NCBI GenBank assembly: GCA_000004985.1
Contig: GG738892.1
Source: Naegleria gruberi
Taxonomy: Eukaryota
DNA length: 64,000 nucleotides
Reading direction: 5' to 3' (one strand)
Part shown: piece by piece, positions 32,684 through 59,817 of the stretch
How the letters are laid out: each line of letters opens with the position of its first letter
How positions within the stretch are numbered: position 1 is the stretch's first letter
The notes under the pieces: model-generated
Databases searched by the model: none
What the model saw: only the letters and a program-made list of their open reading frames with translations
What the model was told of the DNA's origin: nothing
Made by a program: the position numbers and the translations under genes

Positions 32684-35600
32684 TCAAGTTACTTCTTGGA
32701 CGAGTTGTTGGGCAGTTAGGCGAGCTTGAGGAAGGAATTTGAGAAGACGAGTCATGATATTGAGGAGTTTGTTTAACAATGCTTGATTGTGGGTATTGCT
32801 GTAGTGATCTGTGATTGCTTTGGTCATTTCTTGGAAGCTGAATAGGTAATAATTCGAATAATTTATCAGACCATTAATTAGAAATATTGAAAATGAAACA
32901 TACCATTGTTCTTCAGAGTGAATGAGTTTGGAACAAATTGAAGTAGAAGTATCCAAAGTTAATAATTGATACAATGTCACTCCAAGTGAATACATGTCAG
33001 TGGCAAATCCATAAGGTTGATTCAATAGTAATTCTGGTGAAATGTAGCAAAGAGAACCAGCATAGGTATTTTTGGTAGTGTGTGCATTCTCTTTGGCAAT
33101 ACCAAAATCTCCCAAAACAACCTCAATCAAATTCGAGTCAATATCCCTTCTTCTGATAAAGATGTTTTGAGGTTTAATGTCTCGGTGCATGACTTGTTGG
33201 GAATGCACATAGTTAAGAGCTTGGGTGGTTTGAGAAATGATTTTCCAAATAATTGGCAGTGGAATAGTTGTGGCTGATTTGATGGATTCACTAATGATGG
33301 ACATGACATCTCCCTTATACAGTTCCATGACAATGCAAAACATGGAAGAATGCTCGGTATCGACTTGGAAAGTGTCATAAATCTTTACCACATTCTGGTG
33401 ATCCAATTGCTTGACAAGATTGGCTTCATTTTCAGCATCTTGTGTTGGTTTCTGAATTGAATTTTTACCTGTAGCGATGGTTTTGATTGCCACATTTGGT
33501 TCCTCTGGTGTATTCAACACTTGGCATTCAAAAATGATACCAAATCCTCCCTCTCCAATAATTCGAATAATTTTGTATCGATCATCAAGAGTCATTCCCA
33601 AATATTGTTCATATCTTCCATTGCCTGCTCTTTGTGGAAGAATTGAATCGACAGTATTCTTGACTCTCTTCAATTTAATCAGGTTGAGTTCATCATCCAA
33701 TAATTGTAAATCCTTCATGTCCACAACATCCACAAATTCCTCAAAATCGGGATCATAGTATTGCAATTCGTAACTACCTCGAATTCCACATCTGAGCTTG
33801 GTTTTTTTCACAAAATCTTGAACACTCTCAGAATAATTGACAACCATTTTGAATCTCTTACGATACAGATTCAACATGTTATCTATATATTCCACTTCAA
33901 ACTTGTAACAGAGATAGGTTTCGGATTTGTTAAGGAGCTTTCGTGCCCAAATAATCATGTCTGAATTTTCAGTTGTTTCTGCAACAGAGGCCAAATCCAT
34001 TCCATTCTTTTTAACATCCACATCAGCTCCCTTCTCAACTAGGATGAAAGCCAATTCTTGTTGATTCGTCTCTACAGCAAAAGTGAGAGGAGTTCCATTA
34101 TTGATCAATTGGCTGAGACCTGTTTTTCCATTACTGTTCGATTTGGCAGGAGCTTGCTCAGCTTCATTTCCATGATTCAATCGAGCATTTAATAACTTTG
34201 GAAACATTTCAATGAGTGTTACAACGCTTTTGGTTGATCTCTTTCTGAGTGCATATAGAATAAGTGAAGGATTCGAATAGTGAGATTCTTGATATCTAAT
34301 ATCACTAATGGTTCTTCTGGTGGCAAGCTCTGGTTCTTTTTGAACAAGGTATTTCAAAGCACTTGTCATGCCATAATCAATTGCTATAAAGCAAGCCTTT
34401 GATAGAACCTCCACATTGAAATTCTTGTCATCCGTAATCATTGCATTGATGAATAGTTCAACACCTGGATACTTAGAGTTGACAATACAATAATCAATTG
34501 GTCTCAGTCCTCTAAAGCTCTCAAAGCAAAGCTCCTTATTTTTCCTAGCAATGATTTCGACTACAGGCCAATACTTGTTATCGATCGCGTAGAGGAGTAG
34601 ATTCATGTCAACTGGTAATTTCTCATTACTTTTTTGAATATTGTCAATCCGTGTCAAGTGGCAATAATCTATCATTTCTTGATTCTTTGTTCTGAGACTT
34701 TCAGCAGCAATGTCTTTGCCTTTTCTGAGGGCATTGACATTAGCTCCTTTGGAAATTAATTCTTTAAGCTCTTCAAATTGGTTGAGTTGAATGGCTACAA
34801 ACATAGCCTCGTCCAATGACATTCCACCACTCTTATCATAGACAGTAAGGTAATATCTATAATAATTTCCACATTTAACAAGATATTTGATGATTTGATT
34901 TTCATATTCCACAAGCTTTGACTTGTCAACCTTGTTGGTCTTGTTTAAAAGATCATTGACCTTTCCAGTAAATTTGTTCAATCCATCCGTTGATGTTTTT
35001 TCTTTCTGGAATATCTTTTCCACCTCTAGTAAATTTTCCTTATATCTTAGAATAGTATCATTGATATTCTTCCACAATCTGCAATATTCAAACATTTTGC
35101 TACAATAAGTTTCATTGATATTGTAAAAGTATGAAAGAACCATACAAATATTAACATTAGGATATTTCAACGAAACAGTTTTGAGCATATTTCTTGTAAC
35201 AGCTATTGGATGACTTCCAAGATCTGGAATGTTCGAAACATTTGGAAGAGTCTCCTTCGAAAGGCAAATTAACACAATATGAGAAGCACAAATCTTTTTC
35301 AGGATATCTCTTTCCAACTTGTAGGTAGAAAGCTTTGAAACCTCATAGTGAAGTGCTCCAATTAATTTGTAATAGCTGTAGAAATACTTGATGAGAGCAA
35401 ATTGCTTTTCTTCTTGATATAAATAGGTCAATTGATTGATGAGAGCATTCGTATTGTCGAATATTGAACTCATTGCTTCAAATCCAATACCTTTGAGCCG
35501 ATATTTCAAATCAGCAAGTTGATACATATTTTGGGAATTATGCAAACAATCTCTCAATGTTAAAATATTCTGTCTATGCTTGTGAATTAAACACTTGACT

Positions 35601-38600
35601 TTCATGTGAACAAGAGCAGGGAAGCCAACAAATGAGGGTGAAATTGAGTAAATCTCCTTTTGCCAAGTGATTGAATGGGATTGAACAAAAAATTGTTTCG
35701 AAACCAAACTCAGAATGAATAAACTTGTTGGTGTGGTAAAGAGACAAATTCTGCCAATGACCTTATCAGGAAGCCACTTATTAAAAGTTGGGAATCTCCG
35801 TTTGATACTTTCTGAAAGTGCCATATACACATTTCCCATACTCAACAAGTGTTTCAATGGTAAATTGTGCATTATAAATGTAGAATAGAGTGGAACTGCT
35901 TTTTCAATAATTCCAAGAACTATATTATCCGTTTGTTGACCAGGATCTTCTTCGTCATCCTCCTCACGAAACAGCTTCAATTTTTGCTCCAGCTCAACTC
36001 GTAATGACATCTTATTGGACTTTGGTTTTGAGAGTGGAATTGGTGATTTGGATTTTGGAGTACTAGCTTTCGAAAACAAAGTAGGGGGAGGTGGTGGAGG
36101 GATTGCCTTTTCTAGTGGAGTAGGTTTGATAAAGAGTTTGACATCTATTGGTTGGTTAATATTTGGAGGTGGAAGAGGTATTTCCACTTGTTTTGTTGTG
36201 GTGTTCTCTTCCTTCTTTATGGTAGAGGTAGCAGTGGAAATTAGCTTAAATGAACTGTCTGTGTTAGTCTTTTCGATAAAGATACTCGTTGTCAGGAACA
36301 AGTAGTACAATTCATTTCTATCGATGAGTTCATTATCCATCGTCTTGTTTCTGTATTGAATGAGGTAGGGCTGATTGGCCGAGTAGACCTCCATCTTGCC
36401 AGCAATAATTCTCTTTGCTGTTGGTTCCTTGCTCTTAACTGGTCTAATCAGTAGTGGATTGAATATTGGAACTGGAGGAATAATACCACGTTTGTAAACA
36501 ATTACCTTATTATCGAATGGATTGTCTAATTTTTCAACAGATCGTAATGGCAAATTCTTGACATGTTCTGGCAATTCTTTTGGAATCAATTCCAGCAAAT
36601 ATTTGACTTCCTCCTGACGATGCTTTGTAAGCATTGACTCTTTCATAACTGTTATAATAGTATAGAGGAAGGTACTGAATTGATTATCCTTGAATCCAAA
36701 TCTCTTCTTGATATCCATGAAGAATGTTCCATGATAACGTTCCATAATTGAATCAATCCAAGAAGATGCTCTGTTCCAATCAAATTGTTTAGACAAGTTT
36801 AAAACTGTCTTTTTAAGAATTTCGAATAATCTGTTATGATTCTTGGAGAAAACATAGGCCAAATAATCAACATATCTCACATTGTGAAAGTATAAACCAG
36901 AACCAGCCTCTGACTTTTTGATGAACATTTTCAATTCCATCAAGTCATTAGTAATGGAGGTGGAATTTTTCAATACATAGGTCCCAGTAACCTTTGCATC
37001 AATGCCATGATTGAAAATGATCATGGTTTGGTCAATAATTGCCATTAGAGTTTTCATTGGCAACATGAATGGCTCGAAGAGTGAGGGAACAACCTCGAAA
37101 AGTCTGTCAAATTTTGGATCAGAAACAATTTTTGATTCATAGTCATGAGTTTCGTCCAATATTTGTTTCAGATATTTTGCAGATGATGATTTTAACAGGG
37201 TGTCTGCAATTTTAAATTCCAAAGGTTCTAAATCTGTACCTCTAATATCGTGACTAATAATTTCAAGAGATTTTTCCGAGAGCATATCAATAAATTTCAA
37301 AACCTTGACGCTTTTGATCGCATCCAAATCTGGATATCTCAAAAATTCAAAATCTGTACTATTCTGTTGTAAAAATTCTTTCAAATTCACATCCTTGACA
37401 AAGTTCTGCTTGTTTAAAACCTTGCTCAACCTCATGTAGAGATGATTCTTTTCATAGACGCTGGTAATATTCTCGTGAAGTCGTTCGACATAGTTCAGGA
37501 ATGTTTCCAACTCATTACTCTCATCCTCAATTAGTTTTTTAAATGTTTTCCCTCTGTGTGAATGCAGTACTGATGGAAACATGTCACTGGAGAGAAAGGT
37601 CACATTATGAACAAAGGTCTGAACGTACGGATCATTGGTGAGGAAATTTCTCAAATAATCAGGTGAAATATATTTGGAGTTTAAATAGTGATTATTATTT
37701 GTCTCTCTTTTGTTATTTCCATTAGAAAAATTAGAGCTACCCGAAGGAGGAGTATTAGTTGGTGAAGGTGGAGGAGTAGATTTGGGAGATTCTTCTAAGT
37801 TATCAAAGACTGAGGCAAACGAACCTGCTAATGATAAATTTCCAGATGAATTTTCCCTCTTCATTTCCGTTTCAGATGAGAAGAAATCATGAGCATGAAT
37901 CCACAATTGAAATAATTCCTTTTGATTATTTTCCAATAAATGATTCAACACTTGTAATATTTGATAACTGAAAAAGTAAGATTCTTGTCCAGAGTTTGGA
38001 AAGGATTTGTCATTATATTCATAAATATCCAATCCTGTTGTATCCTTTTGTTTTTTCAAATAGAATTTGAATCCTTGTAAATTTCTCTGAATAAAGTTTA
38101 GAATAAACTCATGGAAATAATTACTTACAATGATGGTCTTTTTAATTTCCATAGTTGGATATCGAATTAATTTCTTTTGGAGAATTGAATTTGGAGAAGC
38201 CATATTCGAATCAAAATTAGGTGTCTGATCCGAAGTGAAAGGATTTACCTTGATAATCTTATTTGAAAAGTTCTCCACCTGTTGTCTATTTGGTTTACTA
38301 TTTTGACTTGCAGATAAATATTTAAATCTTCCATTAGTTTCTGATTGACTAGAATTGGGCACTGTTTGTTTCTGTTGAAAATGTTGAGATTGAACATTCT
38401 TCGCCTGATAAACTGTGGAACGAATAAAATCAGCCAATTTACTCTTTCCACTCGACTCTTTACTCCAACCAAAATCTTTAGGTTTCGCACTAAATGAACT
38501 AATCTCACAAATTAATGGAATTTGTAAGACATTAGAAGATTGAGACATGTTTTCCAAAAAGATTCCCTTCCTCACAGTGGGCTGATCCCTCATTAGTGAA

Positions 38601-38956
38601 ATTAAATCAGTCAATATAATTCCTCCAAACAAGTAGGCATCCTCAGTATTGAAATATTGTGAACGTTCGGGAATGACTTGAATTTGTATGGAAATCACAT
38701 CACGGGATGGATTTTCTATATCGAGTGTGGTAGAAATAGAGGTTGTATTGGTTTTTAATTGATCGGCAGAAAAACTTTGTTTATGTTGTAGGTGTCGTGA
38801 GGTGTAGATGGAAATTTCCACTTGAGTGGGAGAATAGAGTTGAGTATTGATGGTGTTGAGAAGGTTGGAATCAAATTCCTTGATGCTCGTAGAGATGTTG
38901 ATGAACCCGAGCTGTAGTTCCAGGCTTGTATTTGCTGCCTGTGTTTGTGTGAGCAT
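32684..38956 (-). CDS. giant (~2090 aa) multidomain protein: large uncharacterised N-terminal/central region, ankyrin repeats, C-terminal Ser/Thr protein kinase domain; join(38956..32904, 32837..32684), 66-nt in-frame intron 32838..32903 (GTATGT..TTCAG)
   Basis: Kinase subdomains present: GEGGFGIIFEC, AIKTI, HRDIKPQNIFI, DFGIAK, GSLCYISPE. Ankyrin-like repeats sit upstream (..GANVNALRKGKD.., ..TPLTFAVETNQQELAFILVEKGADVDV..). Pro-rich linkers (PPPPPTLF, PPPSPTNTPP). The intron is AT-rich and stop-free so the ORF track reads through it; removing it restores subdomain XI (..SEEQ-C-FQEMTKAI..). Confidence 0.8.
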   Translation of the reverse strand: MLTQTQAANTSLELQLGFINISTSIKEFDSNLLNTINTQLYSPTQVEISIYTSRHLQHKQSFSADQLKTNTTSISTTLDIENPSRDVISIQIQVIPERSQYFNTEDAYLFGGIILTDLISLMRDQPTVRKGIFLENMSQSSNVLQIPLICEISSFSAKPKDFGWSKESSGKSKLADFIRSTVYQAKNVQSQHFQQKQTVPNSSQSETNGRFKYLSASQNSKPNRQQVENFSNKIIKVNPFTSDQTPNFDSNMASPNSILQKKLIRYPTMEIKKTIIVSNYFHEFILNFIQRNLQGFKFYLKKQKDTTGLDIYEYNDKSFPNSGQESYFFSYQILQVLNHLLENNQKELFQLWIHAHDFFSSETEMKRENSSGNLSLAGSFASVFDNLEESPKSTPPPSPTNTPPSGSSNFSNGNNKRETNNNHYLNSKYISPDYLRNFLTNDPYVQTFVHNVTFLSSDMFPSVLHSHRGKTFKKLIEDESNELETFLNYVERLHENITSVYEKNHLYMRLSKVLNKQNFVKDVNLKEFLQQNSTDFEFLRYPDLDAIKSVKVLKFIDMLSEKSLEIISHDIRGTDLEPLEFKIADTLLKSSSAKYLKQILDETHDYESKIVSDPKFDRLFEVVPSLFEPFMLPMKTLMAIIDQTMIIFNHGIDAKVTGTYVLKNSTSITNDLMELKMFIKKSEAGSGLYFHNVRYVDYLAYVFSKNHNRLFEILKKTVLNLSKQFDWNRASSWIDSIMERYHGTFFMDIKKRFGFKDNQFSTFLYTIITVMKESMLTKHRQEEVKYLLELIPKELPEHVKNLPLRSVEKLDNPFDNKVIVYKRGIIPPVPIFNPLLIRPVKSKEPTAKRIIAGKMEVYSANQPYLIQYRNKTMDNELIDRNELYYLFLTTSIFIEKTNTDSSFKLISTATSTIKKEENTTTKQVEIPLPPPNINQPIDVKLFIKPTPLEKAIPPPPPPTLFSKASTPKSKSPIPLSKPKSNKMSLRVELEQKLKLFREEDDEEDPGQQTDNIVLGIIEKAVPLYSTFIMHNLPLKHLLSMGNVYMALSESIKRRFPTFNKWLPDKVIGRICLFTTPTSLFILSLVSKQFFVQSHSITWQKEIYSISPSFVGFPALVHMKVKCLIHKHRQNILTLRDCLHNSQNMYQLADLKYRLKGIGFEAMSSIFDNTNALINQLTYLYQEEKQFALIKYFYSYYKLIGALHYEVSKLSTYKLERDILKKICASHIVLICLSKETLPNVSNIPDLGSHPIAVTRNMLKTVSLKYPNVNICMVLSYFYNINETYCSKMFEYCRLWKNINDTILRYKENLLEVEKIFQKEKTSTDGLNKFTGKVNDLLNKTNKVDKSKLVEYENQIIKYLVKCGNYYRYYLTVYDKSGGMSLDEAMFVAIQLNQFEELKELISKGANVNALRKGKDIAAESLRTKNQEMIDYCHLTRIDNIQKSNEKLPVDMNLLLYAIDNKYWPVVEIIARKNKELCFESFRGLRPIDYCIVNSKYPGVELFINAMITDDKNFNVEVLSKACFIAIDYGMTSALKYLVQKEPELATRRTISDIRYQESHYSNPSLILYALRKRSTKSVVTLIEMFPKLLNARLNHGNEAEQAPAKSNSNGKTGLSQLINNGTPLTFAVETNQQELAFILVEKGADVDVKKNGMDLASVAETTENSDMIIWARKLLNKSETYLCYKFEVEYIDNMLNLYRKRFKMVVNYSESVQDFVKKTKLRCGIRGSYELQYYDPDFEEFVDVVDMKDLQLLDDELNLIKLKRVKNTVDSILPQRAGNGRYEQYLGMTLDDRYKIIRIIGEGGFGIIFECQVLNTPEEPNVAIKTIATGKNSIQKPTQDAENEANLVKQLDHQNVVKIYDTFQVDTEHSSMFCIVMELYKGDVMSIISESIKSATTIPLPIIWKIISQTTQALNYVHSQQVMHRDIKPQNIFIRRRDIDSNLIEVVLGDFGIAKENAHTTKNTYAGSLCYISPELLLNQPYGFATDMYSLGVTLYQLLTLDTSTSICSKLIHSEEQWYVSFSIFLINGLINYSNYYLFSFQEMTKAITDHYSNTHNQALLNKLLNIMTRLLKFLPQARLTAQQLVQEVT

Positions 38957-53049: not shown

Positions 53050-53130
53050 TGATGTGTGTGGGATTTGAACCCACGCGGTTTTACCCACTGGCACCTGAAG
53101 CCAGCACCATAACCACTCGGTCAACACACC
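53050..53130 (-). tRNA. tRNA-Leu (anticodon CAG), second copy in inverted orientation
   Basis: Exact reverse complement of the 47684..47764 gene over all 81 nt; ~45 nt of 5' flank and the oligo-T 3' flank are also similar between copies. Confidence 0.85.
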
Positions 53131-53291: not shown

Positions 53292-56200
53292 TTATTTAAA
53301 AACTGAAACTCTGTTGTTAGTCTCCTCACAAATATACAATTCTCCTGTGTGATGATCGACATCAAAACCAGTTGGTGAAAATAATTGACCGTGCTTACTT
53401 CCCTTCTCACCAAATCTCTTGACAATTCTCAAACAACGAGTCTTTCCATTTCTTGGTCCAAGTCTATCAATTAACAAATCATCATAACTTTCAAATTGTC
53501 CCAATTCATCCTTACTCTCCACAAAATTACAATCCTCATAGACATTGATTCGATGCCAATTATGAACTGACAAGTACAAGTATCCTGTAGATCTTTCAAA
53601 ATAAATATAATTGGTGGCCCATTCAATTTCTGGTGAAACACTTAGACTTCTCATATCATGAATTAATTCTCCTTCCCTTGTAAAGACCTTAATGGAACCA
53701 CTTGTAAAATCATAGGCCATTAAATGACCATCATTATTAAAGTCAACTCCCCAACCAGAATTAATTTCCTTAATGGTTCCAATAGTTCTGAGAATTTTAC
53801 CATCATGACTAATAACAGCAATTCTATTATTACACATGTCAGTAACGTAGACATCACTAGTCTCTGGATCGACAGTGAGACATGTTGGAGTAGAAATTTC
53901 ATCTGGATAATCTCCTGCAGATCCTCTTCCTGCTTGCCAAACTTGAACTTTTCCATCCCATGTATATTTGCTGTTTGTGTTGGCATTTCAATTAATTGTA
54001 ATGTAGCAGTAAATGCAATCAATTGTAAGAAAAATAAATAATACATACTAAACCTTATTAGTTGAAGTTCCTGATACAAGCAAAGTCTTATCATTGTAGT
54101 CAAATGCAATAGATCTACTTCCACCTGGAACTGAAAAGTGATACAAATATTTTTTAGTAGCACAATCAAAAACTTGAATTCTACCATTCAAATAATCTGA
54201 AACAAATGCTTGTCTTGTCATGGCATTAATTTTCACATCGTGTGGCAAGCTAAAAAGGCCAGGATCTCTTTGATGTCTAGAGTAATTTCCATACTTGTCT
54301 CCAAGCTTTCCAACATATTCAATCTTTCCAAATAGGCTGAATGTCTTTCTCTTGAAAACCGGTTGAGCAAGAGCTGAGGATTTGGTTGAGTTTGGAGGGG
54401 GCAATTCTTTAAGACCAGTATGGAATTTGGTCTTGTTTGACTTGTTGTGGAGAGTCAAGTGAAGTTCACAGAAATAGGCATCACAATCAGAGCAGTGATG
54501 AGTGGCATTGGTTTTTTCCTCTGCTTCATCAAAACATTTGGTACAATGAGGTACAGAACTTTCCTTCTTCAATTCTACCAAATCATCAACATGGAATTTG
54601 GTCTTGTTTGCCTTATTGTGTAGTGTCAAGTGTTCTTCACAAAAGTGGAGAGCACATGTCTTACAAAAGTGAGTAGCTTGCGTTTGTTCTTCATCATCGA
54701 GACACTTGTCACAGAATCGTTCGCCACTTGAGGAATCATTTGTTTCGGCAAGTGGAATCTTGGTTTCAACTGTTTCAATCAAATTTCCTCTCAAATATAA
54801 ATTAGTAGTGATTAATACATCTTTTCCATCGCCAGCTTGTTCCAACTCAATTGGAATGGATTTTTCATACTTTCCATTTTCTGGAATTAATTGAACTTGT
54901 TCTTCAAATGTTTTTGTGACAAATCTTGTGTCAAATGTAATGACATAGTGTACAGGGTTCGGAGTATACTTTCCATATGGAATTCCAGAAGCATTATTCA
55001 AGGTAATTTTCAATGTTGCTGCCTTTCCTGGTCTGAGAGCAGTTGGATCTTGAGAGATGGATTCAATACTGACAGGATATTGAACCTTAAAAGTTTTTGG
55101 AAGGGTTGAATTGTTAAATGTCTTTCCAAGAAGAGTTGCTTGTGAAATGATGGTAATTTCAGATTCCAAGCCACTACTACCATTCTCTCCTACAGTACCA
55201 TGAAAATCGTGTGGAACGACAATTTCCTCTTGAGGAGCAAGACTTGTATTCAATGTAAAACTTTCCTGACCAGCATTTGGAAGGAATTTGAATTTAGAGC
55301 TAGCCAAACTGGTAAAGCTAATCACTACTCCACTTGGGCATGTCAATTTTCCTTCATTCTTAATTTTGAGACCTGTAATCATGACAGCTTCACCTGGTTC
55401 AATAATTCCATCATTGGTGTTTACATCAGTTGTTTTCAATTCAAAATCTGAAACAACCAAATCATACATTTCACTTGCTTGCTCTAAAACCTGTCCAGTT
55501 TTAGAATCTACAATTACAAACTTCTTAACTCCTGATTGACCAGATTTTGATCCAGGTTCGCCAGCCTTGCCTTCCTGACCAGACTTACCACGATCTCCCT
55601 TTTGGCCATCCTTTCCTTTTTCTCCTGCCTTCTTTCCAGCACCATTTAGTGAGCTAGGATCTCCTCCTGAACCAGCATGTCCACGAGAACCTCCCAAACC
55701 AGCTGATCCAGCTCTACCTTGTTCACCTCCCATACCAGACATTCCTCCTCTACATTCAACTTGTAAAAAGATGAGATATTCTGGGTGGGATGTAGTTACA
55801 ATGACTTGATTGGTTGCATCTCCTCCATTAGCTCCATTTCCACCACTTTAGTTATTATTATTAAATTAGAAATTATTAGAAATAATTTAACAAATAATGG
55901 AAGATGAAAAAACTTACTCTCCACCATTACCTGAATGTCCACCATTTCCTCCTCTGCCACCATTTCCACCATTACCACCACTTCCTCCACTTTCACCTTT
56001 TCCTCCCTTTCCACCATTGCCACCTGATTCATTCAGAGAAGTGAAAAGTAGGGTCAGTACAACTCAATGAAATAGGATAATTAGAAACTTACCACTACCA
56101 CCTTCGCCTCCTGCTCCTCCGTCACCACCTCTACCACCATTTCCTCCATCACCTCCATTAGCTCTGAAAATCAACACGGATTCAGAAGCATCTTTAATAT

Positions 56201-56719
56201 CCAACAAGACACTTTCATTTGCAATATTTGATGACATGTTAAACTTTAACAAATTATCACTCTGGGATTCGATTGTAATTTGCACACTGGTGTGAGGACA
56301 CGATTTACCATCACTAGCATGACTGCCATTCAATCCATCAGTACCATTTCCTCCATTTCCTTTTGTGATTTCACAGAATTCCATAAGATGATGAATTTAA
56401 TGTCAACATATATATATTGAAATCATGTGCAATGATAACAAACCTCCAGAATCACCATCATCTCCTCTACCACCTCCACTCTTTCCCAAATGACCCGATC
56501 TTCCACTCTAAATTTGTTTCAACAACATATTAATATTTACATTTGATCATCAATCATATGATCAACAATACATTAAAATTTCCTTAAATACTATTGTGTG
56601 ATAGAATTACAAACCTCTCCTTTTGATCCTTTTTGTCCAGCTTGACCATCTGAACCATCCGAACCAACCTCACCACTCCAATCAATTATTTTAATCGAAT
56701 CAGTACATGAAGTGGCCAT
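53292..56719 (-). CDS. collagen-like / B-box zinc-finger / NHL-repeat protein, six exons: join(56719..56615, 56507..56444, 56359..56093, 56023..55918, 55845..54049, 53970..53292); introns 107, 84, 69, 72 and 78 nt
   Basis: Exons 1-4 and the start of exon 5 encode Gly-rich (GGX)n and G-X-Y runs (GSDGSDGQAGQKGSKGE / SGRSGHLGKSGGGRGDDGDSG / ..NGGDGGNGGRGGDGGAGGEGGSG / GNGGKGGKGESGGSGGNGGNGGRGG.. / ..AGEKGKDGQKGDRGKSGQEGKAGEPGSKSGQSG) interleaved with short beta-like segments. Exon 5 continues with a ~330-aa spacer and two B-box-type zinc fingers (CDKCLDDEEQTQATHFCKTCALHFCEEHLTLHNK.., CTKCFDEAEEKTNATHHCSDCDAYFCELHLTLHNK..). The exon 5-6 splice (tta|GTATGT..AACAG|c) continues the NHL propeller (..YKYTWDGKVQVWQ..NNRIAVISHDGKIL..NNRVSVFK). 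All donors are GTAAGT, GTATGT or GTTTGT, acceptors are YAG, and phases are consistent. Exon 3, 5 and 6 boundaries were checked against ORF-track codon positions; exons 1, 2 and 4 may be off by 1 nt. Confidence 0.7.
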
Positions 56720-57010
56720 TTTGTTTTTTGCTAAATTCGACTTGTAAAACATTATTCAATATTTATGCTCAATCAAACATGAAAGAACTTGCTAGGAAAT
56801 TGCAAATAACCGAATTGGAACACTAATAGTAAGGAGCGCCAATCAAGGTAAAAAATTCGTTGTGGGGGCGATTAAACATAATATTGTTGTCTAAGGCTAA
56901 AATGCGCGTTTTTGATTGTTATCGTGAGAAAATTTTGTACCAACATCGGATCAAGCCTTTTTAATTTTTTCAAAACTTGAAAAAAACAAATCAAAGACTA
57001 AGAGAGCAAA
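56720..57010. promoter_or_regulatory. divergent (bidirectional) promoter region between two B-box/NHL paralogues
   Basis: 291-bp AT-rich interval between the ATG of the minus-strand gene (56719) and the ATG of the plus-strand gene (57011); no ORF. Confidence 0.3.
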
Positions 57011-58480
57011 ATGCCACCAAAATTCTGCGCCAAATGTCTCGATGAAGAGGAAGAAGTTGCAGCAACTCATCACTGTCCAACATGTGATCTGTTAATGTGT
57101 GAGGTCCATTTGATGTTACACAATAAGGTGGCCAAGACTAAAGGACATGCTGCCGATGTGGTGGAAGTTAAAGAGGAAGAGGAAGAAAAGAAACAAATAA
57201 TGTGTCAAATGTGTATGGAAGATGATGAGGAAACAGCTGCCTTGTACTTTTGTCCTATTTGCAAGTTGAATATCTGTGAACTTCATTTGAATTTGCATAA
57301 CAAGATGAGCAAGACAAAGGGTCACGAAAAGGAGATCAAGATATTGGGAGAGGACGGATTGAGTACTTGTGCTCATTGTCAAGCTCATTGTCCTGATGAT
57401 TTTGTTGATGCTGTCTTTGCCTGTAGAGAATGTAAAACTAATTTGTGTTATCATCATGCTAAAATTCACACTCTTGCTTGTAATCATGCCAAAAATCCAA
57501 AACCTCAAGGTGAAGGATGTTCCCAACTCGATACCAACTCGTTCCGTCTATTGGCCGATAACAAGTTTAAACAATTTGCAGGAGATTTTGAATTTGTTGG
57601 ATTTTTGGGATCAAGTAATGAAGCTCAGGATGAATTTTTCTTGAAAGGAAGTGAAGGAAAGCAACCTCAACAATTCAAAAAACCAAATGGATTGAAAATT
57701 AACATTTATACAAAGGAAATATTTGTTTGTGACTCTCAAAATTGTAGAATTCAAGTTTTTGATTTGACCACAAGAGCATTCAAACGTGAAATGAAGTTTT
57801 TCAGCTTTTCACCACTTCATCTTGATTTTGATCTTTCAGATGACACTATGATCATTAGTGGTGATAATCAAACAGTTGCCAAGTACACAATGGATGGTAG
57901 AACTTTAATTTGGGAATATGGTAAACCAAACAATTATACTGCAACCGATGAGACATTTGGTAATTGTCGTGGTATTGTTGTAGATAATGAAGGGGATGGA
58001 AATGTTTACATTGCCGAGTGGAATAACGATAGAGTGAAGGTATTGACAAGAGATGGCAAGTTTGTCAAACACTTTATTGAAAAGCAATTATGGACTGCTC
58101 CTCAAGGATTGGCTATTAGAAATGGAAATTTACTAGTCAATTCTCGTTGTTATGGTCAAGGACAAGTTGCTGAATTGAGTCTTCCTGATGGAGAATTTAT
58201 TAAGAGTTATGGTAAAAAGCAAGACCTGGATCCTGAACTCCAAGATTCATGCTACATGTGTGTTGAACGATTTTCAGGAAATATTGTCATTGCGGATACT
58301 GACGATTCGTGGACCTCTCCAATTAAATTCATCAAGGGTCAAAGTTTACTCAAACTTGAAAAACCAAGAGGGCAAGGAAAGTTACATTTCAGTGCCCCAA
58401 CTGGCATTGACATTGATCCTTACACTGGTTTATTGTATGTATGCGATCGTGAAAATAATCGTGTTCAAATATTGAAATAA
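57011..58480 (+). CDS. B-box zinc-finger (x3) + NHL-repeat beta-propeller protein
   Basis: N-terminus has three B-box-like modules (CAKCLDEEEEVAATHHCPTCDLLMCEVHLMLHNK.., CQMCMEDDEETAALYFCPICKLNICELHLNLHNK.., CAHCQAHCPDDFVDAVFACRECKTNLCYHHAKIH). C-terminal ~270 aa carry NHL blades (..QNCRIQVFD.., ..NVYIAEWNNDRVKVL.., ..LYVCDRENNRVQILK). Single exon. Confidence 0.75.
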   Translation: MPPKFCAKCLDEEEEVAATHHCPTCDLLMCEVHLMLHNKVAKTKGHAADVVEVKEEEEEKKQIMCQMCMEDDEETAALYFCPICKLNICELHLNLHNKMSKTKGHEKEIKILGEDGLSTCAHCQAHCPDDFVDAVFACRECKTNLCYHHAKIHTLACNHAKNPKPQGEGCSQLDTNSFRLLADNKFKQFAGDFEFVGFLGSSNEAQDEFFLKGSEGKQPQQFKKPNGLKINIYTKEIFVCDSQNCRIQVFDLTTRAFKREMKFFSFSPLHLDFDLSDDTMIISGDNQTVAKYTMDGRTLIWEYGKPNNYTATDETFGNCRGIVVDNEGDGNVYIAEWNNDRVKVLTRDGKFVKHFIEKQLWTAPQGLAIRNGNLLVNSRCYGQGQVAELSLPDGEFIKSYGKKQDLDPELQDSCYMCVERFSGNIVIADTDDSWTSPIKFIKGQSLLKLEKPRGQGKLHFSAPTGIDIDPYTGLLYVCDRENNRVQILK

Positions 58481-58578: not shown

Positions 58579-59817
58579 TTATTTATAAATAACAACCTTA
58601 TCTTCATCACAATTGACATACAAATAGCCATTAGTTGGGTCAATATCCATACCATATGGTCTGAATGGTCTTTCTCCTAATTGAGTTGAGCAACCAGTTG
58701 CTGTAGCCATTAATACTTTGCCATCTTTTTCAGTTAACTCGTAGAGAGTCAATTTCTTAGAGGACGGTTCAGACATGATCAAGTTGCCAGTACACTTTTC
58801 TACTATACAATAAATTGGAGGATTACAGAATGCATTCAGGGTGGAATTCTCATATCCAAAAACCTTATTAACAAATACTCCATCCTTTGTAAATAATTGA
58901 ACTCCTCTCTTGTGATATGTCTTGTTGCAATAGACAAGTAAATTCTTATTGTCGGCTGTCAACCCAATACAGTAAGGATCGTAAATTTCAGCAATGTCGC
59001 TTCCAATCTCTCCCTTCATTGTTCTTAAATATTGACCTGCACTGGAGAAGACTTGAATTCTTGAATTGAAACAATCAGCAACAAATACAGAACCATCCAA
59101 AGGATCGACCACACAAGTAGTATGATCAGAGAATCTGTCATTACTTTCACCTCTTGATTGATCAAATTTCCACACAACTTCACCACTCTCAACTTTAATT
59201 TTGTAAATATTACAACCACAACACAAGATCATTGCTTCATCATTATCACACAAGCACATCCAACGAGCAGTGGAAGGAGCCTTGATCGTTCTCTTTGGCT
59301 CTCTAGTCTTGCTATCAAAAACAGCAATCATACTATATTCATAAGACATGTAAATCTCTTGATTCTTGGCACTCACTTTAACATCAAATGATTTTCTAGT
59401 GCCAAGAGTTTGTTTTTCAATTTCCAAAGTACCAACAAGTGTGAAATTTCCACTAAATGGAACATCACCTCCCTTTCCAATCACTCTAATTTCTGGAGTG
59501 TGTGATTTACTCAGAGTTGAAATCTTGTGCAACTCGACATGATTTTTACATAAATTTAATTTACATTCATGACAATGATGACTAGCCTTCAAACATGTAT
59601 CCAACAATTTCTTCTCCTTCATTTCCAAACACTCATCACACATGTAAACAGGTTTTGAATTAATATCAATCACTTGATCCGCATGCCCGGAAGTCTTCTT
59701 TGCAGCATTATGAAGCTCCAAATGACTCTCACAAAAATAGAGAGCACATTGTGGGCAGTGATGAGAGGCTGGTGTTGTCTCCTCCACTTGTTTACACTTA
59801 TCGCAACATTGAACCAT
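58579..59817 (-). CDS. B-box zinc-finger + NHL-repeat beta-propeller protein (third paralogue)
   Basis: CDKCKQVEETTPASHHCPQCALYFCESHLELHN.., CDECLEMKEKKLLDTCLKASHHCHECKLNLCKNHVELHK.., then NHL blades (..FNSRIQVFS.., ..YLYVNCDEDKVVIYK). ATG start and single exon; convergent with the 57011 gene. Confidence 0.75.
   Translation of the reverse strand: MVQCCDKCKQVEETTPASHHCPQCALYFCESHLELHNAAKKTSGHADQVIDINSKPVYMCDECLEMKEKKLLDTCLKASHHCHECKLNLCKNHVELHKISTLSKSHTPEIRVIGKGGDVPFSGNFTLVGTLEIEKQTLGTRKSFDVKVSAKNQEIYMSYEYSMIAVFDSKTREPKRTIKAPSTARWMCLCDNDEAMILCCGCNIYKIKVESGEVVWKFDQSRGESNDRFSDHTTCVVDPLDGSVFVADCFNSRIQVFSSAGQYLRTMKGEIGSDIAEIYDPYCIGLTADNKNLLVYCNKTYHKRGVQLFTKDGVFVNKVFGYENSTLNAFCNPPIYCIVEKCTGNLIMSEPSSKKLTLYELTEKDGKVLMATATGCSTQLGERPFRPYGMDIDPTNGYLYVNCDEDKVVIYK

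What the first reader, a model, noticed from the sequence alone, without database searches (positions are those of the whole stretch)
55845..56719. Collagen-like (GGX)n / G-X-Y repeats encoded by four short phase-compatible exons at the 5' end of a B-box/NHL gene
Exons 1-4 and the start of exon 5 together encode more than 150 residues in which Gly occupies every third position. Examples are GNGGKGGKGESGGSGGNGGNGGRGG and AGEKGKDGQKGDRGKSGQEGKAGEPGSKSGQSG.

These runs are interrupted by short hydrophobic beta-like segments (IKIIDWSGEV, SVLIFRANGG, VIVTTSHPEYLIFLQVECRGG). Triple-helix-like sequence in a fungus is rare, and its fusion to zinc fingers and a propeller is unexpected.

Each Gly-rich block sits in its own small exon with clean GTAAGT, GTATGT or GTTTGT donors. 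That suggests modular exon duplication.
Basis: seen in the sequence. Interest (0 to 1): 0.6.

Follow-up and report, generated by a model that had tools for sequence, protein, structure and literature searches.

The report
Glycine-rich folded domain, not collagen
The glycine-every-third-residue sequence is real and correctly spliced, but it is the conserved N-terminal domain of an uncharacterised bacterial-and-eukaryotic protein family (DUF7932) in the amoeba Naegleria gruberi. It is predicted to fold on itself rather than form a collagen triple helix, and it did not arise by exon duplication.

Summary
On the minus strand, four short exons plus the start of a long fifth exon encode about 290 residues that are 31% Gly. 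Of these, 178 lie in (G-x-x)n runs of four or more triplets, against 23±15 in shuffles. All five introns are clean GT-AG.

The organism is Naegleria gruberi, not a fungus. The gene is already annotated as NAEGRDRAFT_81014 / D2VRW2, "DUF7932 domain-containing protein".

The same layout of Gly blocks alternating with hydrophobic beta segments, followed by DUF7932, recurs collinearly in Bdellovibrionota, Myxococcota, bdelloid rotifers and a Xylariales fungus. Gly columns are near-invariant and block lengths are conserved.

AlphaFold2 on a rotifer homologue (31% identical) models the Gly blocks at pLDDT 90-98 with no helix or strand assigned. I read this as an intramolecular glycine-rich polyproline-II-type assembly on a small beta sheet. 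It has no match among solved structures.

Collagen membership fails: only 4 Pro, and the Pfam score is below threshold.

Exon duplication is not supported. The introns cut inside the Gly blocks, exons 2 and 4 are phase-asymmetric, the exons share no DNA similarity above controls, and the rotifer homologue has no intron in its first 648 codons.

Function is unknown. The B-box/NHL tail is a Naegleria-specific fusion related to two adjacent paralogues.

The parts
56615..56719 (-). Exon 1 (105 nt, residues 1-35): start codon, first beta segment IKIIDW, and the start of Gly block 1. An in-frame ATG also exists 33 nt upstream at 56752.
   Evidence: same start as the annotated protein P0277
56444..56507 (-). 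Exon 2 (64 nt, phases 0->1): the middle of Gly block 1 (SGRSGHLGKSGGGRGDDGDSG).
56093..56359 (-). Exon 3 (267 nt, phases 1->1): the end of Gly block 1, four beta-like segments (residues 79-123), and the start of GGX block 2.
55918..56023 (-). Exon 4 (106 nt, phases 1->2): the middle of GGX block 2, with internal 9/18/36-nt periodicity.
54049..55845 (-). Exon 5 (1797 nt): the end of block 2, beta segment VIVTTSHPEYLIFLQVEC, Gly blocks 3 and 4, DUF7932 plus two further Ig-like domains, two B-box-like zinc fingers, and the start of the NHL propeller.
53292..53970 (-). Exon 6 (679 nt including the stop codon): the remaining NHL blades.
55818..56159 (-). Genomic span of GGX block 2 (residues 124-190, 58% Gly), interrupted by introns 3 and 4. 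Its length is conserved in the family at 57-77 residues, with modes at 60 and 69.
55527..55649 (-). Gly block 4 (residues 247-287), the only truly collagen-like G-X-Y stretch. It is charged and contains one Pro.
55077..55454 (-). DUF7932 (PF25560) Ig-like domain, residues 312-437.
   Evidence: 58.2 bits, cut-off 27; the fold of the homologue resembles pilin/MG-type beta sandwiches
54423..54713 (-). Two B-box-like Cys/His zinc-finger motifs (residues 559-599 and 615-655).
   Evidence: Cys/His pattern seen in the sequence; weak matches to the TRIM28 B-box (E 0.028) and the MID1 tandem B-box (E 0.22). Pfam B-box was not detected.
53295..54332 (-). NHL beta-propeller region (residues ~686-1005, interrupted by intron 5), related to the two neighbouring genes.
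56024..56092 (-). Intron 3 (69 nt, GTAAGT...CAG, with a TACTGAC branch-like site 34 nt from the acceptor). The public model instead splices out only 30 nt and translates the remainder as VVLTLLFTSLNES.

Best explanation
The Gly-rich repeats are the N-terminal domain of Naegleria gruberi NAEGRDRAFT_81014, a member of the uncharacterised DUF7932 protein family.

**Shown.**
- The family-wide architecture is: [SG-xx-G-xx-G block] - [beta segments] - [h-h-h-x-A-x-GG-x-GG-x-GG... block of about 60-70 residues] - [beta segment 'LLxLV'] - [GG-x/G-x-x blocks of about 75-80 residues] - DUF7932 Ig-like domain plus two further beta sandwiches.
- This architecture is shared collinearly by secreted Bdellovibrionota proteins, by Myxococcota proteins without a signal peptide, and by scattered eukaryotes.

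**Inferred.**
- The Gly blocks fold back on themselves as short left-handed polyproline-II / polyglycine-II helices. These pack into a compact glycine-cored assembly against a small beta sheet made by the hydrophobic segments.
- This gives a rigid domain whose exposed third positions (N, D, S, K, R) form a flat polar surface.
- It is therefore an intramolecular relative of the glycine-rich PPII bundles (snow-flea antifreeze protein, phage S16 gp38 tip, the ALK/LTK glycine-rich domain, predicted PE_PGRS). It is not an intermolecular collagen triple helix.
- The four 5' introns are lineage-specific insertions into GGN-rich coding sequence, not module boundaries.
- The usual family C-terminus has been replaced in Naegleria by a B-box-like/NHL cassette related to the two adjacent paralogues.

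**Speculative.** The Gly domain acts as a rigid recognition or self-association head on an Ig-like stalk. In Naegleria it would be coupled to an intracellular B-box/NHL binding module.
For: **Family membership.** DUF7932 scores 58.2 bits against a cut-off of 27. UniProt names D2VRW2 a DUF7932 domain-containing protein.

**Conserved architecture.**
- The 42-sequence alignment has more than 30 Gly columns at >=90% conservation, although mean column identity is only 14%.
- The blocks and beta segments are visibly collinear from bacteria to Naegleria.
- Of 151 DUF7932 representatives, nearly every one with at least 200 residues upstream carries a 20-38% Gly region there.
- Block 2 length is 57-77 residues, with modes at 60 and 69. 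Blocks 3+4 are mostly 73-81 residues.

**Structure prediction.**
- AlphaFold2 of the A. vaga homologue gave mean pLDDT 88.6 for the full length and 83.2 for residues 1-335.
- The Gly stretches score 90-98 and DSSP assigns neither helix nor strand.
- The strands coincide with the hydrophobic segments.

**Literature.** GGX repeats form double-layer PPII sheets, and GGX motifs are typical of glycine-rich PPII bundles (bioRxiv 10.1101/2023.11.25.568672; PMC13243192).

**Against collagen.** Only 4 Pro in 290 residues, and the Pfam Collagen score is below its cut-off.

**Introns.** They lie inside the blocks, exons 2 and 4 are asymmetric, and there is no exon-to-exon similarity. The A. vaga gene has a single exon over residues 1-648.

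**C-terminus.** It is 26-28% identical to the genes at 57011-58480 and 58582-59817.
Against: - The structure prediction is for a homologue only 31% identical. The tool would not accept the spliced Naegleria protein.
- I could not inspect coordinates or phi/psi angles. The PPII reading rests only on high confidence together with the absence of assigned helix or strand.
- No transcript data were available to confirm the junctions.
- Function has no direct evidence: bacterial neighbourhoods are uninformative, and no other Pfam domain co-occurs in the seven family members scanned.
Confidence: 0.62

Rival explanations
1. True collagen-like triple helix. Three chains would trimerise through the G-X-Y runs, especially block 1 (residues 16-70) and block 4 (residues 247-287). 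This would resemble the bacterial Scl proteins or C1q stalks and would hold three B-box/NHL units together.
For: Blocks 1 and 4 have one Gly per triplet with charged X/Y residues, as in Pro-poor bacterial collagens. The family profile hits collagens strongly through its positions 190-262. There are weak hits to Scl2/SclB and Scl1/SclA and to Pfam Collagen.
Against: - The uninterrupted runs are short, at 8-17 triplets.
- There are 4 Pro in 290 residues, and only one sits inside a run.
- The scores are far below the family cut-offs: 16.9 against 27.2, and 36 against 325.
- The central blocks are GGX, which does not suit a three-chain supercoil.
- Block lengths are fixed across phyla rather than variable as in collagen rods.
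- AlphaFold2 places the equivalent blocks with pLDDT >90 inside a monomer.
Confidence: 0.1
2. Intrinsically disordered low-complexity Gly-rich linker, like RGG/FUS-type or plant glycine-rich proteins. It would act as a flexible spacer or condensate-forming region with no fixed fold.
For: The composition is extreme: 31% Gly and 12% Ser. No curated family covers the region. Many Gly-rich regions are disordered (PMC13243192).
Against: - Individual Gly positions and block lengths are conserved between bacteria and eukaryotes at 14% overall identity.
- Conserved hydrophobic segments are interleaved at fixed places.
- pLDDT is very high over the Gly stretches.
Confidence: 0.1
3. A beta-solenoid or beta-roll of Gly-rich turns (RTX-like or antifreeze-like), possibly binding Ca2+, rather than PPII helices.
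Against: - DSSP assigns no strands within the Gly blocks of the models.
- The period is 3 residues and GGX lacks a recurring hydrophobic residue. It does not fit the nonapeptide GGxGxDxUx (direct reading of the sequence).
- No structural match reaches significance.
Confidence: 0.08
4. One reading: the Gly-rich region was built recently in this genome by duplication of small phase-compatible Gly-rich exons.
For: There are four short exons in a row, all Gly-rich. TRF finds 9/18/36-nt periodicity in exon 4, which shows local triplet-unit expansion.
Against: - The introns lie within blocks rather than between them.
- Exons 2 and 4 are 64 and 106 nt with unequal phases.
- Exon-pair DNA alignment scores are not above triplet-shuffled controls. 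Most have z below 2.5, and the highest is 3.6 at a raw score of 14.
- The same blocks exist in intron-less bacterial genes, and the A. vaga homologue has no intron in its first 648 codons.
- There are no further copies of the module in the 64-kb window.
Confidence: 0.04

Closest known systems
Pfam PF25560 (DUF7932) family proteins, e.g. Adineta vaga I4U23_005038 and Bdellovibrionales / Sandaracinus hypothetical proteins
   Same: The DUF7932 hit is significant. The N-terminal architecture of Gly blocks and beta segments is collinear and is followed by Ig-like domains.
   Different: The Naegleria protein has lost the usual family C-terminus ('LLVT...' domain) and carries two B-box-like fingers plus an NHL propeller instead. 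It also has five introns, four of them inside the Gly region. No family member has a known function.
Glycine-rich polyproline-II helical bundle domains (snow-flea antifreeze protein, Obg N-domain, phage S16 gp38 tip, ALK/LTK glycine-rich domain, predicted PE_PGRS PGII sandwiches)
   Same: Both have GGX/GXX three-residue periodicity with Gly at the core-facing positions, and Gly-rich stretches that are confidently modelled with neither helix nor strand. In ALK the Gly-rich helices are grafted onto a beta domain (own knowledge). In the homologue models here, beta strands alternate with the Gly stretches along the sequence.
   Different: There is no detectable sequence or structural similarity to any solved example. 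The domain is much larger, with about 180 Gly-block residues in four blocks interleaved with about six strands. PPII geometry has not been verified directly.
Collagen / bacterial collagen-like proteins (PF01391; Scl1/Scl2)
   Same: Gly falls at every third residue. Blocks 1 and 4 are charged G-X-Y runs, and sub-threshold profile hits are obtained.
   Different: Pro is almost absent, GGX predominates, and the runs are short and interrupted. Block lengths are fixed, and the region is modelled as a monomeric compact domain. All scores fall below the family cut-offs.
TRIM-NHL proteins (RING-B-box-coiled coil-NHL)
   Same: B-box-like zinc fingers lie upstream of an NHL propeller.
   Different: No RING finger was detected by Pfam. 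The B-box evidence is weak. The N-terminus is a Gly-rich/Ig-like module instead. The organism is a heterolobosean, outside Metazoa.

Membership tests
Collagen triple helix (PF01391) | Profile score at or above the Pfam gathering threshold | tested here: not met
   16.9 bits against a cut-off of 27.2, E 0.0053
Collagen triple helix (PF01391) | Long uninterrupted G-X-Y runs with Pro (or Hyp) frequent at X/Y | tested here: not met
   Runs are 8-17 triplets long and broken by beta segments. There are 4 Pro in residues 1-290, only one of them inside a run. Most triplets are G-G-X.
Collagen triple helix (PF01391) | Three chains wound into one supercoil (trimer) | not testable with these tools
   Only monomer models of a homologue were possible.
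DUF7932 family (PF25560) | DUF7932 domain above the gathering threshold | tested here: met
   58.2 bits against a cut-off of 27, residues 312-437, nearly full profile coverage of 4-130 of 130
DUF7932 family (PF25560) | Gly-rich, beta-interleaved region immediately upstream of DUF7932 (a family trait found here, not part of the Pfam definition) | tested here: met
   The alignment is collinear with near-invariant Gly columns. The upstream Gly-rich region is present in almost all representatives that have enough upstream sequence.
Glycine-rich PPII (polyglycine-II) helical bundle domains | Three-residue periodicity with Gly at one to two of every three positions over many consecutive turns | tested here: met
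   178 of 290 residues lie in (Gxx)n>=4 runs. Block 2 is 58% Gly as GGX.
Glycine-rich PPII (polyglycine-II) helical bundle domains | Backbone in PPII geometry, with helices packed side by side | tested here: inconclusive
   Homologue models have pLDDT 90-98 over the Gly stretches and no DSSP helix or strand. Coordinates could not be inspected, and the window's own spliced protein could not be submitted.
Glycine-rich PPII (polyglycine-II) helical bundle domains | Detectable structural or sequence similarity to a solved member (sfAFP, gp38, ALK/LTK, Obg, acetophenone carboxylase) | tested here: not met
TRIM-NHL proteins | NHL repeats forming a propeller | tested here: met
   PF01436, E 4.4e-10, 39.5 bits against a cut-off of 20
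TRIM-NHL proteins | B-box zinc finger | tested here: inconclusive
   Two C-x2-C...C-x2-C...C-x2-H...H...H motifs are present. There is no Pfam B-box hit. Weak matches to the TRIM28 B-box (E 0.028) and MID1 (E 0.22). The neighbouring paralogue hits ANCHR-like_BBOX at 21.7 bits, below the cut-off of 27.
TRIM-NHL proteins | N-terminal RING finger | tested here: not met
   No RING family appears in the Pfam scan at E<=1. The N-terminus is the Gly-rich domain.
RTX beta-roll | Nonapeptide GGxGxDxUx with a periodic hydrophobic residue | tested here: not met
   The period is 3 (9/18 nt at DNA level), with no recurring hydrophobic position in the GGX runs.

The most novel reading that the evidence does not exclude
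The Gly-rich region represents a large, uncatalogued domain family with a fold that has no solved counterpart. In this reading it is a multi-block glycine-cored PPII assembly stitched onto a beta sheet. It is widespread in Bdellovibrionota and Myxococcota, both with and without DUF7932. It would have been transferred horizontally into a few eukaryotes (Naegleria, bdelloid rotifers, Xylariales). In Naegleria it would have acquired four introns and been rewired to a B-box/NHL module, making an intracellular recognition protein of a new type.
Probability: 0.3. Interest if true: 0.65.

Novelty: new variant of a known kind. Interest (0 to 1): 0.42.

Why it matters
Stable glycine-rich PPII bundles are known from only a handful of solved proteins, and they are of interest for protein design and antifreeze work. 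A conserved 290-residue domain of this type would enlarge that class considerably. It spans bacteria and several eukaryotic lineages and carries more than 30 near-invariant Gly positions, which makes it a tractable target for expression.

The finding also has three practical uses. It is a caution that "collagen-like" periodicity need not mean collagen. It flags a probable mis-splice in the public N. gruberi gene model. And it gives an example of introns sitting inside GGN-rich coding sequence in a gene family that is otherwise largely intron-less there.

Tried and rejected
**Structure prediction**
I used the A. vaga homologue instead, both full length and residues 1-335.

**Fold and sequence comparison**
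- Sequence and profile searches of PDB returned only collagens and artificial Gly linkers, through periodicity and composition.

**Functional clues**
- NCBIfam and Pfam scans of family members and Gly-only relatives found no domain beyond DUF7932 and sub-threshold collagen/Scl hits.
- The neighbourhoods of two bacterial homologues contain housekeeping genes and no operon clue.
- The C-terminal domain of the rotifer homologue matched no solved structure.

**Distribution and literature**
- Literature searches for DUF7932, for the locus tag and accessions, and for Naegleria with B-box and NHL found nothing.

**Allele comparison**
- The 98.5%-identical environmental allele L001 has too few differences to discriminate the two intron-3 models. 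It has only a 3-nt indel in intron 4, 8 nt of insertions in intron 5, and an in-frame 6-nt indel in exon 5.

**Further copies**
- A search for other copies of the Gly module in the window found none.
Full report
**1. What is in the sequence**

Reading the minus strand of 53800-57400 and assembling the exons gives one uninterrupted reading frame of 1005 codons:
- exon 1: 56719-56615
- exon 2: 56507-56444
- exon 3: 56359-56093
- exon 4: 56023-55918
- exon 5: 55845-54049
- exon 6: 53970-53292

The five introns are 107, 84, 69, 72 and 78 nt long. Their GC is 15-33% against 35-50% for the exons, and each carries stop codons if read through.

Residues 1-290 are 31% Gly and 12% Ser. Of these, 178 lie in runs of four or more G-x-x triplets, against 23 +/- 15 (maximum 72) in 2000 shuffles of the same residues. 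The observation, its coordinates and its quoted peptides are therefore confirmed.

**2. Whose gene it is**

Exact look-ups of five intron-less ORFs of the window, including the two flanking this gene, identify Naegleria gruberi. For example, 57011-58477 is XP_002673203.1 and 58582-59817 is XP_002673279.1, both on a 342-kb scaffold. The organism is a heterolobosean amoeboflagellate, not a fungus.

The gene itself is annotated as XP_002673278.1 / EFC40534.1 / UniProt D2VRW2 / NAEGRDRAFT_81014. It is 1018 aa and is named "DUF7932 domain-containing protein".

That model equals mine except at intron 3:
- It removes only 30 nt and translates the remainder as VVLTLLFTSLNES, in the middle of a GGX run.
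- With the 69-nt intron the run is continuous (…GGEGGSGGNGGKGG…).
- 40 of 41 homologues align through this junction, and only two have any insertion near it.
- The 69-nt intron also contains a TACTGAC branch-like site 34 nt from the acceptor.

I therefore think the public model is mis-spliced here. No transcript evidence was available to settle this.

**3. What the protein is**

Pfam finds DUF7932 (PF25560) at residues 312-437 (58.2 bits, cut-off 27) and NHL repeats in the C-terminal part. Collagen reaches only 16.9 bits against a cut-off of 27.2.

Two Cys/His motifs at 559-599 and 615-655 look like B-boxes, but the support is weak: TRIM28 B-box E 0.028 and MID1 E 0.22.

A protein search with residues 1-551 recovers a family of proteins from:
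- bdelloid rotifers (Adineta vaga, A. ricciae, A. steineri)
- a Xylariales fungus
- unnamed eukaryotic metagenome contigs
- Bdellovibrionales, Bdellovibrionaceae, Myxococcales, Kofleriaceae and Sandaracinus

Their sequences show the same order of elements as the Naegleria protein:
- an SG-xx-G-xx-G block
- beta-like segments
- a strand ending in A/x-GG followed by about 60-70 residues of GG-x
- a strand 'LLxLV'
- a further 75-80 residues of GG-x and G-x-x
- DUF7932

In a 42-sequence alignment with 14% mean column identity, more than 30 Gly columns are at least 90% conserved.

Block 2 is 57-77 residues long with modes at 60 and 69, which differ by three triplets. Blocks 3+4 are mostly 73-81 residues.

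An exhaustive search with only the non-Gly part (residues 291-560) finds 151 cluster representatives. Nearly all that have at least 200 residues upstream of DUF7932 carry a 20-38% Gly region there.

So the Gly-rich region and DUF7932 form one conserved module. Related Gly/beta modules also occur without DUF7932 in small bacterial lipoprotein-like proteins.

**4. Fold**

The spliced Naegleria sequence could not be submitted for structure prediction. I therefore modelled the A. vaga homologue, which is 31% identical and has the same architecture.
- The full-length model has mean pLDDT 88.6. The N-terminal 335 residues alone give 83.2.
- In both, the Gly-rich stretches score 90-98 and DSSP assigns neither helix nor strand.
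- The strands fall on the hydrophobic segments, which align with IKIIDW, SVQITIE, LLKFNM, VLLDIK, VLIFRA, VIVTTS/LIFLQVEC and KKFVIVD of the Naegleria protein.

Confident, compact, non-alpha and non-beta structure with a three-residue Gly period is what glycine-rich polyproline-II (polyglycine-II) bundles look like. The literature states that GGX repeats form double-layer PPII sheets and that GGX motifs mark such bundles in sfAFP, gp38, ALK/LTK and PE_PGRS.

This is my reading, but it is an inference for three reasons:
- I could not inspect the coordinates.
- Profile searches of PDB sequences return only collagens, by periodicity.

The rest of the homologue is a chain of Ig-like sandwiches resembling pilins and macroglobulin domains.

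**5. Why it is not collagen**

- There are only four Pro in 290 residues, and only one is inside a run.
- Two thirds of the periodic residues are in GGX rather than G-X-Y.
- The runs are short and interrupted at conserved places.
- Block lengths are fixed across phyla.
- The scores are far below the cut-offs of Pfam Collagen and of the NCBIfam Scl models.
- The blocks are modelled confidently within a single chain.

Only block 4 (residues 247-287) and part of block 1 look like Pro-poor bacterial collagen. Trimerisation through them cannot be excluded computationally.

**6. Why it is not exon duplication**

- Introns 1 and 2 cut block 1, and introns 3 and 4 cut block 2. No block has its own exon.
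- Intron phases are 0, 1, 1, 2. Exons 2 (64 nt) and 4 (106 nt) therefore cannot be duplicated or skipped without a frameshift.
- Local DNA alignments between exons score no better than triplet-shuffled controls.
- TRF sees only 9/18/36-nt periodicity inside exon 4. This indicates expansion of triplet units within an exon.
- The block layout is present in intron-less bacterial genes.
- The A. vaga gene encodes residues 1-648 in one exon. A related eukaryotic metagenome contig, which also carries a histone gene, encodes the equivalent of residues 47-550 in one piece.

The Naegleria introns are thus lineage-specific, either gained in Naegleria or lost elsewhere. No other copy of the module exists in the window.

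**7. The fusion**

The C-terminal 445 residues are 26-28% identical to the two adjacent genes (57011-58480 on the plus strand, 58582-59817 on the minus strand). These genes also encode Zn fingers and/or NHL repeats.

Other family members end in a different, unannotated domain beginning 'LLVT…'. The Naegleria architecture is therefore a local fusion of the family's N-terminal module to a B-box-like/NHL cassette of a tandem paralogue cluster.

Among the listed hits only one other protein (A. steineri P0014) combines DUF7932 with NHL. That may be a merged gene model.

**8. Function**

Nothing is known.
- Bdellovibrionota members have signal peptides. Myxococcota and eukaryotic members do not.
- The gene neighbourhoods of two bacterial members are housekeeping.
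- No other Pfam domain co-occurs in the seven family members scanned.
- No paper mentions the family or the locus.

By analogy with other glycine-rich PPII domains, I propose that the domain is a rigid, flat, polar recognition or self-association surface on an Ig-like stalk. In Naegleria it would be coupled to an intracellular B-box/NHL binding module. This last step is speculation.

**9. Verdict**

The headline interpretation (collagen-like, fungal, exon-duplicated) is mostly wrong.

What remains interesting is an unstudied, conserved, probably PPII-type glycine-rich domain family with no match among solved structures, plus a Naegleria-specific fusion. I rate the interest as moderate.

Noticed in passing
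window 56024-56092 (minus strand): The public N. gruberi model XP_002673278.1 appears to mis-splice intron 3. It removes only 30 nt and inserts 13 hydrophobic residues (VVLTLLFTSLNES) into a GGX run. Only 2 of the 40 homologues that align through this junction have any insertion near it.
   Followed up: partly
window 57011-58480 (+) and 58582-59817 (-): These are two further Zn-finger/NHL genes (XP_002673203.1, XP_002673279.1), 26-28% identical to the C-terminus of the gene studied. They form a small local paralogue cluster. The first is transcribed divergently from the Gly-rich gene across a gap of about 290 bp.
   Followed up: partly
window 53050-53130 (-): A tRNA-Leu(CAG) gene lies about 160 bp downstream of the stop codon of the gene.
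   Followed up: no
window 56752 (minus strand): An in-frame ATG lies 33 nt upstream of the annotated start and would add MFYKSNLAKNK. The true start is undecided.
   Followed up: no
L001 (ENA metagenome ERZ929261, 2308 bp) = window 53993-56301: An environmental contig is 98.5% identical to this locus. It has a 3-nt deletion in intron 4, 8 nt of insertions in intron 5, and one in-frame 6-nt deletion in exon 5. This indicates a close N. gruberi-like strain in that sample.
   Followed up: partly
proteins P0087, P0043, P0076, P0034, P0055, P0030: These are small (330-500 aa) bacterial proteins, several with lipoprotein-like or signal-peptide-like N-termini. They carry the same 'strand-A-x-GG-x-GG…' and 'SG-xx-G' blocks but no DUF7932 and no Pfam family. 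This suggests a wider uncatalogued Gly-rich domain superfamily.
   Followed up: no
P0014 (Adineta steineri, 841 aa): This rotifer protein also combines the Gly-rich/DUF7932 module with NHL repeats. It is either an independent fusion or a merged gene model.
   Followed up: no
P0002, P0006, P0053, P0066 C-termini: Eukaryotic and Myxococcota family members share an unannotated C-terminal domain starting 'LLVT/LLFVT…'. For the one example tested (P0006) there was no PDB sequence match. Bdellovibrionota members lack this domain and have signal peptides instead.
   Followed up: partly
PDB 8zxl_X / 9ius ('spindlefibril | axialfibril', 780 aa): The family's Gly-rich profile matched this non-collagen-named solved chain at E 2e-28. 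I did not examine what it is or whether it is a Gly-rich PPII-type fibril.
   Followed up: no
window 32684-38956 (-): A 2090-codon uninterrupted ORF is the largest in the window. Its exact sequence is not in the protein collection, and I did not characterise it.
   Followed up: no
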